DNA from: a phage
DNA length: 64,000 bases
NCBI GenBank assembly: GCA_024674815.1
Contig: GCA_024674815.1_4104.1
Direction: 5' to 3' (one strand)
Position 1 is the first letter of the stretch. Each line of letters opens with the position of its first letter. Of this stretch, positions 15,709-20,512 are shown one piece after another. The notes below the pieces were generated by a model. That model saw nothing but the letters and a program-made list of their open reading frames with translations, searched no databases and was not told the DNA's origin. Position numbers and translations under genes: made by a program.

Positions 15709-15900
15709 TTACTTTCTATATATAAGCATTAAGATATAGTAGTACTGATTATACTGTACATTCTCTTTAATATTATAAGGGTCTATAGCAATCTCGGTAC
15801 ATCTGTTAAATGCATATCTATTAAATGCCAGTGGAATTATAGATCTAATCCATACTTGTTCATTTTCTTTTAGTTTACTTATATAGAAGTTTTTATACAT
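15709..15900 (-). CDS. small tandem-paralog family protein S1 (63 aa)
   Basis: family: N-term M-x-(K/E)-(E/H)-(F/Y)-Y, hydrophobic C-term; tightly packed array. Confidence 0.55.
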   Translation of the reverse strand: MYKNFYISKLKENEQVWIRSIIPLAFNRYAFNRCTEIAIDPYNIKENVQYNQYYYILMLIYRK

Positions 15901-15915
15901 AGTATTCTCTATTAA

Positions 15916-16098
15916 TTAATATGATAGTACTAGTGTTAGTACTGAGCACAATTGTTCTTTATAGTTCTTATGGTATATAGAATCTTTTATGCACTCATTG
16001 AAGTGCCATAGGTATAATCTTGGGTCGCATTCTTTATATATTCTTACGGGGACGAATGTTAGTTTTCGTATATAGAATTCTTTATGTTCTTTATTCAT
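15916..16098 (-). CDS. small tandem-paralog family protein S2 (60 aa)
   Basis: MNKEHKEFY...; family member. Confidence 0.55.
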   Translation of the reverse strand: MNKEHKEFYIRKLTFVPVRIYKECDPRLYLWHFNECIKDSIYHKNYKEQLCSVLTLVLSY

Positions 16099-16099
16099 A

Positions 16100-16288
16100 T
16101 TAGTACCTGAATATAAGTAGGATTATGTTATAGTACTGGTTAGTACTGCAATGATTCTCTATACATCGATTAACAGTTATGGAATAGCTATATCTGGCGT
16201 AAGCATTATCCAGGGGGATTTTACATTGAGCACTTAGAGAAAGTACAGTAGGTAGTGTATTCAAATAGAAGTCTTTGTAATTATTCAT
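16100..16288 (-). CDS. small tandem-paralog family protein S3 (62 aa)
   Basis: ends ...LLIFRY; 1-nt spacing to S2. Confidence 0.55.
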   Translation of the reverse strand: MNNYKDFYLNTLPTVLSLSAQCKIPLDNAYARYSYSITVNRCIENHCSTNQYYNIILLIFRY

Positions 16289-16490
16289 ACAGGAATAGTA
16301 TACCTATGATGCCGGAGTACAGGTTAGTACTGTTACCATCTTCATTTGCGTTTAAAGTCATTTGAATACAATTATTGTAGCATACTCTGCCGAAAAATGT
16401 ATTAGTACTTAAAGGTGGAGTAGTCCTTAGAAACATTTGTTCTGAGGGGCTTATGTATTTGGAGTAGAATTCTTTATGTTCTTTATTCAT
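16281..16490 (-). CDS. small tandem-paralog family protein S4 (69 aa)
   Basis: MNKEHKEFY...; overlaps S3 start by 8 nt. Confidence 0.55.
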   Translation of the reverse strand: MNKEHKEFYSKYISPSEQMFLRTTPPLSTNTFFGRVCYNNCIQMTLNANEDGNSTNLYSGIIGILFLYE

Positions 16491-16495
16491 ATTAG

Positions 16496-16681
16496 TTAGT
16501 GTCTGTATATAAGTAATAGTAAGAATACGTACTGCACATCTTCATCTTTAGTATTGAGTACTGTACGTATTGCGTCATTAAACAAGAATATAGTACTTGG
16601 GTCATGAGAATTTAAAGGGGTTCTGGGTACGGCACATTTGTAGTTCCCTTTAACAAATTGTGTGTAGTATTCTCTATGCAT
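16496..16681 (-). CDS. small tandem-paralog family protein S5 (61 aa)
   Basis: MHREYY...LLLIYRH. Confidence 0.55.
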   Translation of the reverse strand: MHREYYTQFVKGNYKCAVPRTPLNSHDPSTIFLFNDAIRTVLNTKDEDVQYVFLLLLIYRH

Positions 16682-16682
16682 A

Positions 16683-16868
16683 TTAGTACCTATATATTAG
16701 GGCGATAATGTAGTACAATTCATATGGAATGTAATTTGGGGTGATCGCACACTGTGTATGGTAAATGAATTGTTCGGTATTTTTCTTATCCTTGATATCT
16801 ATTGGGATTAGTGGTATAAGCATTTGGGAGTTTAGATCGAGATGGCTTAAGTAGAATTCTTTATGCAT
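16683..16868 (-). CDS. small tandem-paralog family protein S6 (61 aa)
   Basis: MHKEFY...ALIYRY. Confidence 0.55.
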   Translation of the reverse strand: MHKEFYLSHLDLNSQMLIPLIPIDIKDKKNTEQFIYHTQCAITPNYIPYELYYIIALIYRY

Positions 16869-16877
16869 ATTGTTCTC

Positions 16878-17066
16878 TTAGAATACGAAAGCTAGGTACA
16901 GGGTATGATACAGTACTCGATGGTAGCTGTCATGATCTAGTATACATGCTTTAGTGCACATAGTAAAGTACACTTTATCGTTTTGTGCATTGATACCGCG
17001 AGGTTTATCTAATAGATTAGTACTGAGGTACATTGGGAAATATTTTGTGTAGTATTCTTTATGCAT
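16878..17066 (-). CDS. small tandem-paralog family protein S7 (62 aa)
   Basis: internal ATG MHKEYYTKYF chosen by family pattern. Confidence 0.5.
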   Translation of the reverse strand: MHKEYYTKYFPMYLSTNLLDKPRGINAQNDKVYFTMCTKACILDHDSYHRVLYHTLYLAFVF

Positions 17067-17067
17067 A

Positions 17068-17250
17068 TTAGTACCTGAATATAAGTAGGATAGTGTTATA
17101 TAGCTGGTCATAACTACTACTATTTTCTATACTTCGTTCTATGCAGTTATTGAATCCCAGTACTGCCAAATCGTTATCCATAGGGACTTTGTATCTGGCG
17201 TAGTGTTCAAAAATGCTGGGGAGAAATTGTGTGTAGTATTCTTTGTGCAT
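17068..17250 (-). CDS. small tandem-paralog family protein S8 (60 aa)
   Basis: MHKEYY...ILLIFRY. Confidence 0.55.
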   Translation of the reverse strand: MHKEYYTQFLPSIFEHYARYKVPMDNDLAVLGFNNCIERSIENSSSYDQLYNTILLIFRY

Positions 17251-17251
17251 A

Positions 17252-18677: not shown

Positions 18678-18866
18678 TTACATAGAGATGAGTTTCAGTA
18701 CATCAATATACATATAACGTTCAGATGACTGTACACGGGTAGTGATAATCTCAATCGATATGTTTTTAATTAGAGGTGAAGATGATTGATGGTTCTGAAT
18801 AAATGTGTGGTGCATACTTTGTTCTATGTGGTTTAGTTTATTGAAGTAGTACTCAAAAGTGTTCAT
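18678..18866 (-). CDS. small tandem-paralog family protein S14 (62 aa)
   Basis: MNTFEYY...VLKLISM subfamily. Confidence 0.55.
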   Translation of the reverse strand: MNTFEYYFNKLNHIEQSMHHTFIQNHQSSSPLIKNISIEIITTRVQSSERYMYIDVLKLISM

Positions 18867-18873
18867 GTCTACC

Positions 18874-19053
18874 TTAGATTGAGATTAGTTTAAGTACTTC
18901 TCTGTACGTGTACTTTTCGTTTTGTGCTTCTACTGTACACGAGAGTAGATAACGTTTTTTATCTCTTTTGTTCCCGACTGTGTAGTACCTTTGGAATTTA
19001 TTATAGTTGTATCTATCTTTGTGCTGGAGGTTATAGATATAGAATTCTTGCAT
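18874..19053 (-). CDS. small tandem-paralog family protein S15 (59 aa)
   Basis: hand-translated MQEFYIY...VLKLISI. Confidence 0.45.
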   Translation of the reverse strand: MQEFYIYNLQHKDRYNYNKFQRYYTVGNKRDKKRYLLSCTVEAQNEKYTYREVLKLISI

Positions 19054-19061
19054 AGAGTACC

Positions 19062-19247
19062 TTATATTGCTATCAGTTTGAGTACTTCAATATATGTGCG
19101 GTACTCTGCTTTAATTAAATTTGTACACACTGTAAGGGAATTTCTTTGTATAAGTTTATTGCCGCTTTTATACGCATTTCTCCACACATAGAGATGAGAT
19201 CTTTCAGGCATAGATAGTTTATTGGTATAGTACTCAAATGTATTCAT
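19062..19247 (-). CDS. small tandem-paralog family protein S16 (61 aa)
   Basis: MNTFEYY...VLKLIAI. Confidence 0.55.
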   Translation of the reverse strand: MNTFEYYTNKLSMPERSHLYVWRNAYKSGNKLIQRNSLTVCTNLIKAEYRTYIEVLKLIAI

Positions 19248-19255
19248 ATATTACC

Positions 19256-19438
19256 TCAAATAGAGATTAGTTTAAGTACTTCTCTGTATGTGTACTTTTC
19301 GTTTTGTGCATCTCTTGTGCTTGTATATAGGTATCCTCGACGATATTTGTTGCTCCCGTTCTTGTAGTTGAATTCGAACTTATTGTAGATGAATCTATCG
19401 CCAGGCTGTAATTTACTTAAGTACAATTCAATGCTCAT
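19256..19438 (-). CDS. small tandem-paralog family protein S17 (60 aa)
   Basis: internal ATG MSIELYL...; track start is TTG. Confidence 0.5.
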   Translation of the reverse strand: MSIELYLSKLQPGDRFIYNKFEFNYKNGSNKYRRGYLYTSTRDAQNEKYTYREVLKLISI

Positions 19439-19448
19439 AGTATTCTCT

Positions 19449-19634
19449 TTACATATCAATAAGTTTCAGTACTGCTCGGTACGTGTACTTAGTTGTCAGT
19501 GCTTCTTTAATAGAAATACAGAAGTAATGTTGTTTGTCTCTTATACTGCCGCGTTTGTAGTACCACACATGGGAGTTGTGACTGTACTTGTCCCTGTCGG
19601 ATAGATTTTGGTAATAGTATAATATATGATTCAT
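19449..19634 (-). CDS. small tandem-paralog family protein S18 (61 aa)
   Basis: MNHILYYY...VLKLIDM. Confidence 0.55.
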   Translation of the reverse strand: MNHILYYYQNLSDRDKYSHNSHVWYYKRGSIRDKQHYFCISIKEALTTKYTYRAVLKLIDM

Positions 19635-19686
19635 GGTAATGTAATTAGCCTTATTATGTTAAAGTACTCGGTCCCTGGTGTACCTT

Positions 19687-19881
19687 TTAGAACTTAAAGA
19701 TGAGGTTCAGGATAGAGCGGTACTTAGTTTCAGGGAACTGATGTTCTATTGCATAACGTGTCACCATCCTGAAATCGTAATTATAATACAGATTATCCTT
19801 TCTCATAGGTGGTGCTAAAGAGAATGATAGCTGTTCTTGTTTGGGTAGTTTACTACAATAGAAATCTTTATGATTATTCAT
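19687..19881 (-). CDS. small tandem-paralog family protein S19 (64 aa)
   Basis: MNNHKDFY... Confidence 0.55.
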   Translation of the reverse strand: MNNHKDFYCSKLPKQEQLSFSLAPPMRKDNLYYNYDFRMVTRYAIEHQFPETKYRSILNLIFKF

Positions 19882-20083
19882 AGAAATATATTAGTCCTAT
19901 TAAACCTGAGTACATAATATTTTTGTTATTGCATTCGATTGCTTCTAGAGTACTACGTATACAATTATTAAAGCAATCTCTACCGAATTGAGTATTGGTA
20001 CTTACAGGTGATACACTCCTTAGAAACAATTGTTCTTCGTTGCTAAGGTATTTGGTGTAGAATTCTTTATGTTCAGTATTCAT
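19874..20083 (-). CDS. small tandem-paralog family protein S20 (69 aa)
   Basis: MNTEHKEFY..., close to S4. Confidence 0.55.
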   Translation of the reverse strand: MNTEHKEFYTKYLSNEEQLFLRSVSPVSTNTQFGRDCFNNCIRSTLEAIECNNKNIMYSGLIGLIYFYE

Positions 20084-20084
20084 A

Positions 20085-20288
20085 TTAGTACTCGATTAAT
20101 AGGGTAAGGATGTAATAGTATTGCATACATTCTACCCCTTGTAAAGCATTTCTTATGTTATTATTCCTGTACGAGTTCAGGAGTTTAGGGCTACGTTTGA
20201 GGTGTTTGAAATTAGTTTGTGTATGCAGTAGGCTTTCACGTAGACCTTTTGTTGGTAGTGCATCGATGTAGTACTGTTCGATATTCAT
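20085..20288 (-). CDS. small tandem-paralog family protein S21 (67 aa)
   Basis: MNIEQYY... Confidence 0.5.
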   Translation of the reverse strand: MNIEQYYIDALPTKGLRESLLHTQTNFKHLKRSPKLLNSYRNNNIRNALQGVECMQYYYILTLLIEY

Positions 20289-20512
20289 ATAGATAGCAGT
20301 ACTAAGATTTTTGATAATTGTTTATTGCTATCCCCGCAGATGTTGCTGTGTAAAATACTCACAATGAGGGTATCAATTGCATTGTTCATCATAAGGGTGC
20401 ATCCTGGACTATTATAATTTTTTAGCTCAATTAGCCACGAACTATCCGCGAGAAATTCCCCGTACTCTAGTTCATTTAGAGTATTGAGGTAGTACTTAAG
20501 AGTATTTGTCAT
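20285..20512 (-). CDS. small tandem-paralog family protein S22 (75 aa), first gene of array
   Basis: MTNTLKYYLNTL...; promoter upstream. Confidence 0.5.
   Translation of the reverse strand: MTNTLKYYLNTLNELEYGEFLADSSWLIELKNYNSPGCTLMMNNAIDTLIVSILHSNICGDSNKQLSKILVLLSI

What the first reader, a model, noticed from the sequence alone, without database searches (positions are those of the whole stretch)
15709..20512. About 21 tandem, translationally coupled paralogs of a ~60-aa protein family, divergent from the RCC1 array
Seen: 21 small minus-strand ORFs (59-75 aa, three below the track threshold found by hand) with N-termini like MNKEHKEFY / MHKEYY / MNTFEYY, a central Cys, and hydrophobic C-termini (...LLLIYRY or ...VLKLISI subfamilies). 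Spacing is 1-10 nt or overlapping, so they form one polycistronic unit. The conserved C-terminal Arg-Tyr-stop (AGGTACTAA) doubles as the Shine-Dalgarno of the next gene. One 219-aa gene is embedded. The promoter (~20538-20566) is back-to-back with the RCC1 array. The function is unknown; such diversification is typical of inhibitor or immunity-like families.
Basis: partly seen in the sequence, partly recalled or inferred. Interest (0 to 1): 0.85.

Follow-up and report, generated by a model that had tools for sequence, protein, structure and literature searches.

The report
Tandem mini-protein gene family in jumbo phage
A giant E. coli virus carries about twenty back-to-back copies of a gene for a tiny four-helix protein, packed into one operon next to the genome's terminal repeat. 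The array is real, protein-coding and not described before, but what the proteins do is still unknown.

Summary
Window 15709-20512 (minus strand) carries 21 small ORFs (59-75 aa) plus an unrelated 219-aa gene. There are 21 junctions: 20 range from an 8-nt overlap to a 15-nt gap, and one is 52 nt.

The window comes from an Asteriusvirus (121Q/PBECO4-like) E. coli jumbo phage. Twenty ORFs are demonstrably one family: subfamily A has 13, subfamily B has 6, plus m02. m01 is only a probable member.

The ORFs are coding. Pooled ortholog dN/dS is 0.37, substitutions concentrate at codon position 3, and AlphaFold2 gives a confident compact four-helix model (pLDDT 92.6).

The family is found only in this genus. 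It has no Pfam, NCBIfam, PADLOC or PDB match. Fold searches returned only generic helical-repeat fragments. PHROGs holds only subfamily A, as unknown function.

A single σ70-like promoter and a strong Shine-Dalgarno (SD, ribosome-binding) site head the array; both are invariant in 7 phages. Internal cistrons have weak SDs or none, which fits translational coupling.

The array lies about 270-330 bp inside the unique region, next to the ~21-kb direct terminal repeat. Copy number (16-21) and composition differ between strains, yet each copy is under purifying selection.

The function is not shown. My best guess (about 0.35) is an early, host-directed set of binder proteins for takeover or counter-defence. 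Interest is moderate.

The parts
20561..20566 (-). -35 hexamer TTGACA of the array's head promoter
   Evidence: Consensus scan; sequence read; invariant in 7 phages
20538..20543 (-). -10 hexamer TACTAT (17-nt spacer that contains CAGTACTG)
20521..20526 (-). Strong SD AAGGAG of the first cistron (duplex -9.3 kcal/mol)
20285..20512 (-). m01, 75 aa; probable but unsecured distant member
   Evidence: hhalign P about 7e-4 to 3e-3
20085..20288 (-). m02, 67 aa; family member with no SD; ATGA overlap with m01
   Evidence: (82 % to A)
19874..20083 (-). m03, 69 aa, subfamily A; 59 % identical to m18
19687..19881 (-). m04, 64 aa, subfamily A; 8-nt overlap with m03; pairs with m19
19635..19686 (-). The only long gap in the array (52 nt); other phages carry an extra member here
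19449..19634 (-). m05, 61 aa, subfamily B
19256..19438 (-). m06, 60 aa, subfamily B (start refined)
19062..19247 (-). m07, 61 aa, subfamily B
18874..19053 (-). m08, 59 aa, subfamily B (56 % to m06)
18678..18866 (-). m09, 62 aa, subfamily B (40 % to m07); highest ortholog dN/dS (1.49)
18490..18669 (-). m10, 59 aa, subfamily B
17820..18479 (-). Embedded 219-aa gene (phrog_29152, unknown function); unrelated to the family; restricted to the same phage lineage
   Evidence: (pLDDT 37)
17645..17827 (-). m11, 60 aa, subfamily A (start refined; 8-nt overlap with the 219-aa gene; no SD)
17464..17643 (-). m12, 59 aa, subfamily A
17252..17455 (-). m13, 67 aa, subfamily A
17068..17250 (-). m14, 60 aa, subfamily A; the sequence modelled by AF2 (four helices, pLDDT 92.6)
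16878..17066 (-). m15, 62 aa, subfamily A (start refined)
16683..16868 (-). m16, 61 aa, subfamily A
16496..16681 (-). m17, 61 aa, subfamily A
16281..16490 (-). m18, 69 aa, subfamily A (59 % to m03)
16100..16288 (-). m19, 62 aa, subfamily A; 8-nt overlap with m18; pairs with m04
15916..16098 (-). m20, 60 aa, subfamily A
15709..15900 (-). m21, 63 aa, subfamily A; last gene of the array
15380..15435 (.). Inner boundary of the ~21-kb direct terminal repeat, mapped by homology; window 1 to about 15435 is repeat sequence
   Evidence: The WPEC5 record end aligns to window 15435. The fEgEco12 DTR of 20,993 bp, confirmed by PhageTerm and restriction digests (PMC13070987), maps to about 15380 using the coordinates.

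Best explanation
SHOWN. The region is a genus-specific (Asteriusvirus) multigene family. It holds 20 (probably 21) tandem paralogs that encode soluble proteins of about 60 aa. The AlphaFold2 model of one member shows four compact helices around a conserved hydrophobic core (Y6, L10, F33, C36, I41, L50, L54, L56, I57, F58) with hypervariable surface positions. An unrelated 219-aa gene is embedded in the array.

The genes form one tightly packed leftward unit, headed by a single conserved σ70-type promoter (TTGACA-17-TACTAT) and a strong AAGGAG SD. Internal cistrons have only weak AGGT-type SDs, often formed by the Arg-Tyr-stop codons of the preceding gene, or no SD at all.

The array grew by tandem duplication, partly in two-gene units: m03-m04 resembles m18-m19, and m06-m07 resembles m08-m09. 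Copy number and composition differ between strains (16-21 copies), but each copy is kept under purifying selection.

INFERRED. (1) The array is transcribed as one polycistronic mRNA by host RNA polymerase. Translation of internal cistrons relies on coupling or re-initiation, which would give roughly co-ordinated amounts of all paralogs. (2) It is expressed early. It sits directly beside the terminal repeat, whose small genes each carry a perfect σ70 promoter, and in the related phage PA5oct the terminal-repeat genes are the early class. (3) Each paralog uses the common scaffold to bind a different host or competitor target. The array would then be a host-takeover or counter-defence arsenal, comparable in logic to the terminal multigene families of poxviruses and African swine fever virus.

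My confidence is about 0.9 for the anatomy and evolution, about 0.6 for early polycistronic coupled expression, and about 0.35 for the binder or counter-defence function.
For: Anatomy.

Family status: (A vs B hhalign 90 %, P=1.5e-6; A vs m02 82 %).

Coding and purifying selection: dN/dS 0.37; substitutions by codon position 175/118/241; core 0.29, surface 0.41.

Fold: (pLDDT 92.6, pTM 0.74; helices at 3-7, 12-18, 27-42 and 46-58). Core and surface pattern.

Soluble and not a DNA mimic: (maximum 19-residue hydropathy below 1.2; net charge -3 to +6).

Promoter and SD invariant in 7 phages. No terminator-like site on the coding strand inside the array.

SD energies. The first gene scores -9.3 kcal/mol. 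Internal genes have a median of about -3.8, four have none, and control ATGs average -1.0.

Position next to the terminal repeat. Ten perfect TTGACA-16/17-TATAAT promoters, all on the minus strand, in the repeat. PA5oct terminal-repeat genes are early and host-RNAP dependent: (PMC7318152).

Strain-to-strain mosaicism: 16-21 members; 19 members in a divergent metagenomic lineage, same gross order, different interior.

Lineage restriction: (36 of 50,697 phage records, all Asteriusvirus-like).

No small-array (gp5xxc) product appears in the phAPEC6 virion-proteome rows retrieved: (PMC7247149).
Against: - There are no expression data (RNA-seq, Ribo-seq or proteomics) for any member, so timing, polycistronic transcription and coupling are inferred from sequence only.
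- There is no homology or fold similarity to any known inhibitor, immunity, antitoxin or anti-defence protein.
- Surface positions are under purifying, not positive, selection among orthologs. That does not look like a fast arms race at the sequence level.
- Across the region, promoter-like matches are not more frequent than in shuffles (29 vs 36). The head promoter therefore rests on its quality, position and conservation. The whole intergenic region is 91-100 % conserved, so that conservation is not specific to the hexamers.
- Only one member (m14) was modelled. Subfamily B was not modelled separately.
Confidence: 0.4

Rival explanations
1. The proteins are small nucleic-acid-binding regulators or architectural proteins. 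The paralogs would bind phage or host DNA or RNA, for example as specific transcription factors or nucleoid-like proteins. This is how the ~35-copy zinc-ribbon expansion of Bacillus phage G has been interpreted.
For: Subfamily B is uniformly basic (pI 9.2-9.6, net +3 to +6, except m09). The proteins are all-helical. The genome carries a hugely over-represented palindrome, AGTACT (267 vs 22.8 expected), that needs some binding factor. CAGTACTG lies in the spacer of the array's own promoter. The phage G precedent is (PMC7824862).
Confidence: 0.15
2. The proteins are assembly or accessory factors for the neighbouring RCC1-like array. They would act as chaperones or adaptors for the 11 virion-associated β-propeller proteins encoded divergently next door.
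For: The two arrays are immediately adjacent and divergent, and this layout is kept in a divergent lineage. Both are expanded in Asteriusvirus. Several RCC1-like proteins are found in phAPEC6 virions (PMC7247149).
Against: Salmonella phage SE_PL has a large RCC1-like array abutting the spaced small genes, but it has no member of this family. Copy numbers do not match (about 21 vs 11). No small-array product appears in the phAPEC6 virion-proteome rows retrieved. The σ70-type promoter and the position next to the early-type terminal repeat fit an early rather than a late morphogenetic class.
Confidence: 0.1
3. The copies are functionally redundant filler. Tandem duplicates would be retained mainly because the large capsid tolerates or needs extra DNA (the 'ratchet' idea of Hua et al. 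2017), without distinct functions for individual copies.
For: Hua et al. propose tandem duplication as a route of jumbo-genome expansion and mention a tandem array in 121Q (PMC5646251). Copy number varies from 16 to 21 without obvious consequence.
Against: Every testable copy is under purifying selection. Several are 98-100 % identical in protein between phages that are about 92 % identical in DNA. The paralogs have diverged to 20-45 % identity while keeping the reading frame, the length and the core residues. The gross order is conserved in a divergent lineage.
Confidence: 0.05
4. The ORFs are not genes, and the similarity reflects a non-coding tandem DNA repeat.
For: Many annotation pipelines skip a large share of these ORFs.
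Against: dN/dS is 0.37 with an excess of third-position substitutions. All 21 frames are open and of near-constant length in 7 or more phages. Similarity is detectable at protein level between copies far too diverged for DNA matching. The AF2 model built from the family alignment is confident.
Confidence: 0.01

Closest known systems
phrog_11711 (PHROGs v4, unknown function)
   Same: 13 of the 21 ORFs (subfamily A) match it at E down to 1e-27 over the full length.
   Different: PHROGs does not include subfamily B, m01 or m02, carries no function, and says nothing about the tandem operon organisation. Linking A, B and m02 into one family is new here.
Other lineage-specific tandem expansions of small genes in jumbo phages: the 'LGTNYQE' array of Asteriusvirus (probably the '>30 very similar genes' of 121Q in Hua et al. 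2017) and the ~35-copy zinc-ribbon family of Bacillus phage G
   Same: These are tens of tandem, same-strand, overlapping small paralogs of unknown function in a jumbo phage. The LGTNYQE array flanks the same terminal repeat on its other side.
   Different: They are unrelated in sequence (hhalign P 0.17-0.47). The present family has no zinc-ribbon cysteines (mostly 1 Cys, range 0-3). It is also much more diverged (20-45 % identity) than 'very similar' copies would be.
Host-takeover or pre-early modules at terminal repeats of large virulent phages: the SPO1 gp37-gp60 module in the terminal redundancy, T5 pre-early genes in the DTR, and PA5oct DTR early genes
   Same: These are clusters of very small genes of unknown or host-directed function. 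They lie at or next to long terminal repeats and are driven by strong host-type promoters (for PA5oct). SPO1 and T5 are cited from my own knowledge.
   Different: Those modules consist of unrelated genes, mostly with individual promoters. Here 20 paralogs share one promoter in a packed operon that lies just outside the repeat.
Terminal multigene families and 'genomic accordions' of poxviruses and African swine fever virus (MGF110, MGF360 and others)
   Same: These are tandem paralog arrays next to terminal repeats, with copy-number and composition differences between isolates. They are interpreted as host-range or immune-evasion arsenals. This is an analogy from my own knowledge.
   Different: They belong to eukaryotic viruses and to unrelated protein families. 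No function has been demonstrated here, and no recent identical-copy amplification is seen (the closest paralog pair is 59 % identical).
Small specific binder or neutraliser proteins such as colicin immunity proteins (Im7/Im9, ~85-aa four-helix) and T4 Dmd (60-aa antitoxin)
   Same: They share the size class, and for the Im proteins a helical scaffold with conserved core and variable specificity surface. This is the kind of mechanism proposed here (own knowledge).

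Membership tests
phrog_11711 | Significant full-length match to the PHROG profile | tested here: met
   13 of 21 members match, best E=1.2e-27. Subfamily B, m01 and m02 do not match at E<=1e-3.
Single homologous family (A + B + m02 + m01) | Profile-profile similarity over the full length between subgroups, using profiles that do not contain the target | tested here: met
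   A vs B 90 % (P=1.5e-6, 55 columns). A vs m02 82 % (P=1e-5). B vs m02 64 %. For m01 the test is inconclusive (P 7e-4 to 3e-3).
Protein-coding genes (vs non-coding repeat) | Purifying selection and codon-position bias in ortholog comparisons | tested here: met
   Pooled dN/dS is 0.37 and substitutions by codon position are 175/118/241. Caveat: the comparisons of several phages to the window are not independent.
Translationally coupled polycistronic operon | Same strand, minimal or overlapping intercistronic distances, no internal terminators, weak or absent SDs on internal cistrons | tested here: met
   20 of 21 junctions range from -8 to +15 nt. No minus-strand terminator-like site lies inside the array. 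Four cistrons lack any SD and most others score about -3.8 kcal/mol.
Translationally coupled polycistronic operon | A single transcript, and dependence of downstream translation on upstream translation | not testable with these tools
   This needs RNA-seq or 5'-RACE and polarity experiments.
Viral tandem multigene family / genomic accordion | Tandem paralogs with copy-number and content variation between isolates | tested here: met
   16 to 21 members in 7 phages, with slots replaced by relatives of 40-65 % identity. A divergent lineage has 19 members. Two-gene duplication units are visible.
Early (host-RNAP-dependent) gene class | σ70-type promoter | tested here: met
   TTGACA-17-TACTAT (10 of 12 matches), conserved in 7 phages. 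This is a consensus match only.
Early (host-RNAP-dependent) gene class | Transcript present in the first minutes of infection | not testable with these tools
   No Asteriusvirus transcriptome was found in the literature. The only support is the analogy to PA5oct terminal-repeat genes.
Known anti-defence proteins (anti-CRISPRs; Ocr/ArdA-type DNA mimics) | Sequence or fold similarity to a characterised member; strong negative charge for DNA mimics | tested here: not met
Helix-turn-helix or other DNA-binding regulators | Recognisable DNA-binding domain or fold | tested here: not met
Membrane or secreted small proteins | Hydrophobic segment of about 19 residues or more, or a signal peptide | tested here: not met
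   The maximum 19-residue Kyte-Doolittle mean is 1.18 or less. In the AF2 model the hydrophobic C-terminus is helix 4 of the bundle.
Virion structural proteins | Detection in purified virions | tested here: inconclusive
   No small-array (gp5xxc) product appears among the phAPEC6 virion-proteome rows retrieved, while neighbouring RCC1-like proteins do. However, 7-kDa proteins are easily missed by MS, and the table was read only in excerpt.

The most novel reading that the evidence does not exclude
The array is a phage counterpart of the terminal multigene families of large eukaryotic DNA viruses. It would be a co-translated set of about 20 mini-binders on one previously unseen four-helix scaffold. 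Each would neutralise a different host immunity or toxin protein, or a different allele of one polymorphic host target. Strains would swap cassettes to match the defence repertoire of their hosts.
Probability: 0.25. Interest if true: 0.75.

Novelty: new member of a known kind. Interest (0 to 1): 0.5.

Why it matters
If the paralogs are target-specific binders, a single 4.8-kb locus would supply about 20 natural mini-proteins of about 60 aa on a common, confidently predicted scaffold. Each would probably have a different E. coli target. That would be a compact entry point for finding new host-takeover or anti-defence mechanisms in a jumbo-phage group where more than 80 % of genes are uncharacterised. 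It would also offer a natural scaffold for engineering binders.

Independently of function, the locus is a clean model for two questions. One is how tandem duplication, in one- and two-gene units, followed by subfunctionalisation builds jumbo-phage genomes. The other is how weak SD sites embedded in the previous gene's last codons can co-ordinate the translation of 22 cistrons.

There is also a practical point. Current annotations miss many of these ORFs, so pangenome and 'unique gene' counts for these therapeutic-candidate phages are distorted.

Tried and rejected
1. I first took the phage for a nucleus-forming Goslar-type chimallivirus. The literature places 121Q/PBECO4 in the Rak2/GAP32/PA5oct-like group instead, so I dropped nucleus-related ideas.

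2. I tested whether the array lies inside the terminal repeat, like the SPO1 and T5 early modules. It does not. The repeat boundary maps to window ~15,380-15,435, which is 270-330 bp beyond the last gene.

3. P0056 (796 aa, 14 matched stretches) looked like a polyprotein relative. It is a low-complexity repeat artefact.

4. I tested whether the embedded 219-aa gene is a family member with an insertion. hhalign rejects this (P 0.035-0.3). Its AF2 model is unusable (pLDDT 37), so I made no fold search for it.

5. I tested whether the second Asteriusvirus array ('LGTNYQE') is related to this family. It is not.

6. I looked for positive selection on surface positions. It is not supported (surface dN/dS 0.41). 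The m09 value of 1.49 rests on 6 synonymous changes and is not significantly above neutral.

7. I considered CAGTACTG as an array-specific operator. I rejected this because it is the commonest extension of a genome-wide 12-fold AGTACT excess.

9. I searched the literature for expression or functional data on Asteriusvirus and found none.

10. A + strand TGATATAAT at 20590-20598 could be the RCC1 promoter. However, it would start transcription inside the SD of the real RCC1 start (ATG at 20615), so I do not claim it.

Full report
**Source of the window**

Megablast of window 15000-21000 finds 37 phage records, all Escherichia or Salmonella jumbo phages of about 310-386 kb. Identity is 99 % to vB_EcoM_E9.1 and SHEFM2K and about 92 % to 121Q. 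These are Asteriusvirus, members of the Rak2/GAP32/PA5oct-like clade. They are not nucleus-forming chimalliviruses, as I first assumed.

**Check of the observation**

The ORF listing and manual refinement confirm 21 small minus-strand ORFs of 59-75 aa, plus one 219-aa gene, between 15709 and 20512. Three small ORFs and the large one must start at conserved internal ATGs. These starts agree with the annotation of E9.1.

The 21 junctions are:
- -8 nt, three times
- -4 nt, once
- +1 nt, six times
- +5, +7, +9 and +15 nt, once each
- +8 nt, four times
- +10 nt, twice
- one 52-nt gap, between m04 and m05

AGGTACTAATATG is found at five junctions.

The promoter-like site TTGACA-17-TACTAT lies at 20566-20538, followed by AAGGAG 8 nt before the first ATG. 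Both hexamers and the SD are invariant in seven phages. The whole intergenic region is 91-100 % conserved, however. Promoter-like matches in the region as a whole are also no more frequent than in shuffles (29 vs 36).

**Is it one family?**

All-against-all BLASTP gives two clear groups:
- Subfamily A: m03, m04 and m11-m21
- Subfamily B: m05-m10, ending in ...VLKLISI

With window sequences only, the A-B link is weak (hhalign P=5e-4). With profiles enriched by orthologs from other phages and metagenomes, the link becomes solid:
- A vs B: 90 % probability, P=1.5e-6, 55 colinear columns
- A vs m02: 82 %, P=1e-5
- B vs m02: 64 %

m01 matches only through its terminal motifs. Adding a 28 %-identical ortholog did not change this (best P about 7e-4; colinear P about 3e-3). 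I count 20 firm members and one probable. The 219-aa gene is unrelated. No other copy occurs in the 64-kb window.

**Coding or repeat?**

I compared equal-length orthologs from six related loci with the window by the Nei-Gojobori method.
- Pooled dS is 0.074, dN is 0.027, and dN/dS is 0.37.
- Substitutions by codon position are 175, 118 and 241.
- Conserved-core columns give 0.29 and variable columns give 0.41, and the difference has p=0.07.

The comparisons are not phylogenetically independent, but the direction is clear. These are genes under purifying selection, and the variable surfaces are constrained too. Only m09 stands out (1.49, based on 6 synonymous changes).

**The protein**

AlphaFold2 on m14 with a 70-sequence family alignment gives pLDDT 92.6 and pTM 0.74, with helices at 3-7, 12-18, 27-42 and 46-58.

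The positions conserved across 98 subfamily-A sequences are mostly hydrophobic and show helical periodicity: Y6 (invariant), L10, F33, C36, I41, L50, L54, L56, I57 and F58. Most other positions exceed 3 bits of entropy. This amounts to a conserved scaffold with a variable surface. The 'central Cys' is one of the conserved, mostly hydrophobic helix-3 positions (73 % conserved) and is not part of a metal-binding site.

The proteins have no membrane-length hydrophobic segment. Net charge runs from -3 to +6. Subfamily B is basic (pI 9.2-9.6), and Tyr makes up 11.2 % of residues, twice the background. The Tyr, Asn and His richness plausibly explains why the array's coding strand has a GC skew opposite to the other minus-strand genes; this link is my inference.

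**Relatives and known families**

- A profile search of 5.8 billion proteins returns 53 clusters, and those with source names or long contigs trace to ~350-kb Asteriusvirus-like phages.
- An exhaustive HMMER scan of 1.84 billion representatives returns 33 hits. All are 57-69 aa apart from one low-complexity artefact.
- tblastn finds the family in 36 of 50,697 phage records, all Escherichia or Salmonella jumbo phages of 310-386 kb like those.
- Pfam, NCBIfam, PADLOC and PDB sequences give nothing.
- PHROGs holds only subfamily A, as phrog_11711 with unknown function. It has no family for subfamily B, m01 or m02.
- Foldseek against the PDB gives nothing. Against BFVD it finds only the family itself.
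- The 219-aa protein is equally lineage-restricted and could not be modelled (pLDDT 37).

**Genomic position**

The linear WPEC5 record ends in a stretch that is 100 % identical to the sequence just left of its array. This defines a 21.7-kb direct terminal repeat whose inner boundary aligns to window 15435.

In fEgEco12 a 20,993-bp terminal repeat was confirmed by PhageTerm and restriction digests (PMC13070987). Using the coordinates, its boundary maps to about window 15380.

Window 1 to about 15435 is therefore terminal-repeat sequence. The array begins 270-330 bp inside the unique region and is transcribed towards the repeat.

The repeat contains ten perfect σ70 consensus promoters (TTGACA with a 16-nt spacer in nine and 17 nt in one, then TATAAT) and a dozen near-perfect ones. 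All ten perfect ones are on the minus strand, roughly one per small gene. In PA5oct, from the same clade, transcription depends on host RNA polymerase and the terminal-repeat genes are the early class (PMC7318152). An early class for the array is thus plausible, but it is only inferred.

**Translation signals**

Only the first cistron has a strong SD (-9.3 kcal/mol). Internal cistrons have AGGT-type SDs of about -3.8 kcal/mol, and m02, m11, m13 and m18 have none. Eighty control ATGs in the same region average -1.0. Combined with the overlaps and 1-nt gaps, this fits termination-reinitiation coupling.

**Evolutionary dynamics**

Member counts are:
- 21 in the window and E9.1
- 16 in 121Q
- 20 in WPEC5, slurp01 and CMSTMSU
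- 21 in EC.P1
- 19 in a divergent metagenomic lineage

The gross order is conserved: m01 to m04, then block B, the 219-aa gene, block A, and m21. Interior slots, however, are deleted, duplicated or replaced by relatives of 40-65 % identity.

Two-gene duplication units are visible. m03-m04 resembles m18-m19 (59 % and 36 % identity, with the same 8-nt overlap), and m06-m07 resembles m08-m09 (56 % and 40 %).

Salmonella phage SE_PL, from the sister group, has the RCC1-like array directly abutting spaced small genes, but it has no member of this family. The two arrays are therefore separable.

**Literature**

No paper describes this array. Hua et al. [quoted passage not shown] That description fits a different, unrelated array of about 28 genes with an 'LGTNYQE' motif. 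I found it on the other side of the terminal repeat.

In phAPEC6 virions, several RCC1-like proteins were detected. No small-array (gp5xxc) product appears in the retrieved rows of that table.

**Interpretation**

The anatomy and evolution are well supported. The region is a genus-specific, tandemly duplicated, individually conserved family of four-helix mini-proteins in one packed operon. The function is not established.

The best-supported mechanism is early, coupled co-expression of a set of scaffold-sharing binders that each recognise a different host or competitor target. I put this at about 0.35.

The rivals are:
- small nucleic-acid-binding regulators (0.15), suggested by the basic subfamily B and the genome-wide AGTACT motif
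- accessory factors of the RCC1-like proteins (0.10), weakened by SE_PL
- redundant filler (0.05)
- non-coding repeat (0.01)

**Verdict**

The finding is real and undescribed. In kind, though, it is one more lineage-specific small-gene expansion in a jumbo phage, with no functional handle yet. I rate interest at 0.5 and novelty as 'new member of a known kind'.

Noticed in passing
whole window (for example 15447-15454, 15507-15514, 20547-20554); also L001, L002, L008: The palindromic hexamer AGTACT is 12-fold over-represented: 267 copies against 22.8±4.8 in dinucleotide shuffles. Its commonest extension, CAGTACTG, occurs 56 times against about 1 expected. Density is 5-8 per kb in the terminal repeat and the array and 2-4 per kb elsewhere. 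There is no reading-frame preference. The motif is also enriched in the distant Salmonella phage SE_PL (4.3 per kb). In at least 6 promoters CAGTACTG sits exactly 8 nt after the -35 hexamer (TTGACA, once TTGACT) and directly before the -10. I found no explanation or literature.
   Followed up: partly
window 1 to about 15435: This stretch is the inner 15.4 kb of the ~21-kb direct terminal repeat. It is full of small minus-strand genes. It carries ten perfect σ70 consensus promoters (TTGACA, 16-nt spacer in nine and 17 nt in one, TATAAT), plus about 12 TTGCAA-16-TATAAT sites, roughly one per gene. Terminator-like hairpins are about twice as frequent as expected.
   Followed up: partly
L007 18412-24568 (WPEC5 PV654397 record ~353.4-359.6 kb); not in the window: A second, unrelated tandem family of about 28 overlapping genes (65-87 aa, conserved 'LGTNYQE' motif, 29-45 % pairwise identity) lies on the other side of the terminal repeat. 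It is probably the '>30 very similar genes' that Hua et al. 2017 mention for 121Q.
   Followed up: partly
window 20615-33467 (+ strand): There are eleven tandem RCC1-like (WD40_RLD) genes of 245-418 aa. The first starts at the ATG at 20615, preceded by AAGGAGG, and not at the upstream ATG at 20597 that gives the longest ORF. Several homologs were detected in phAPEC6 virions. An equivalent array exists in Salmonella phage SE_PL.
   Followed up: partly
window ~13870-15700: This is a gene-poor stretch of about 1.8 kb that spans the repeat boundary, with no gene annotated in 121Q. It contains a ~45-nt direct repeat (ctatataggagtactattattCAGTACTGaatcaatcc) at about 13827 and 13880. It has two copies of ATGATTCAGTACTGAT at about 15441-15456 and 15501-15516. 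A hairpin at 15434-15415 sits right at the boundary.
   Followed up: no
window 16000-34000: GC skew is positive across both the minus-strand array and the plus-strand RCC1 genes. The array's coding strand is therefore C-rich, unlike the other minus-strand genes. This is consistent with its Tyr, Asn and His-rich, Gly/Ala/Val-poor composition.
   Followed up: partly
L002, L004, L005, L006, L009, L010: Public annotations and metagenome gene calls miss many of these small ORFs. For example, 13 CDS in total are annotated across the EC.P1 locus, which has 21 members, and 3 of the 19 members were called on the ENA contig. Gene counts and 'unique gene' comparisons for these phages are therefore unreliable in this region.
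   Followed up: partly
window 18678-18866 (m09): This is the only member whose ortholog comparison gives dN/dS above 1 (1.49; 37.7 non-synonymous vs 6.3 synonymous changes). The value is not significantly above neutrality. It may reflect replacement by a related cassette rather than positive selection.
   Followed up: no
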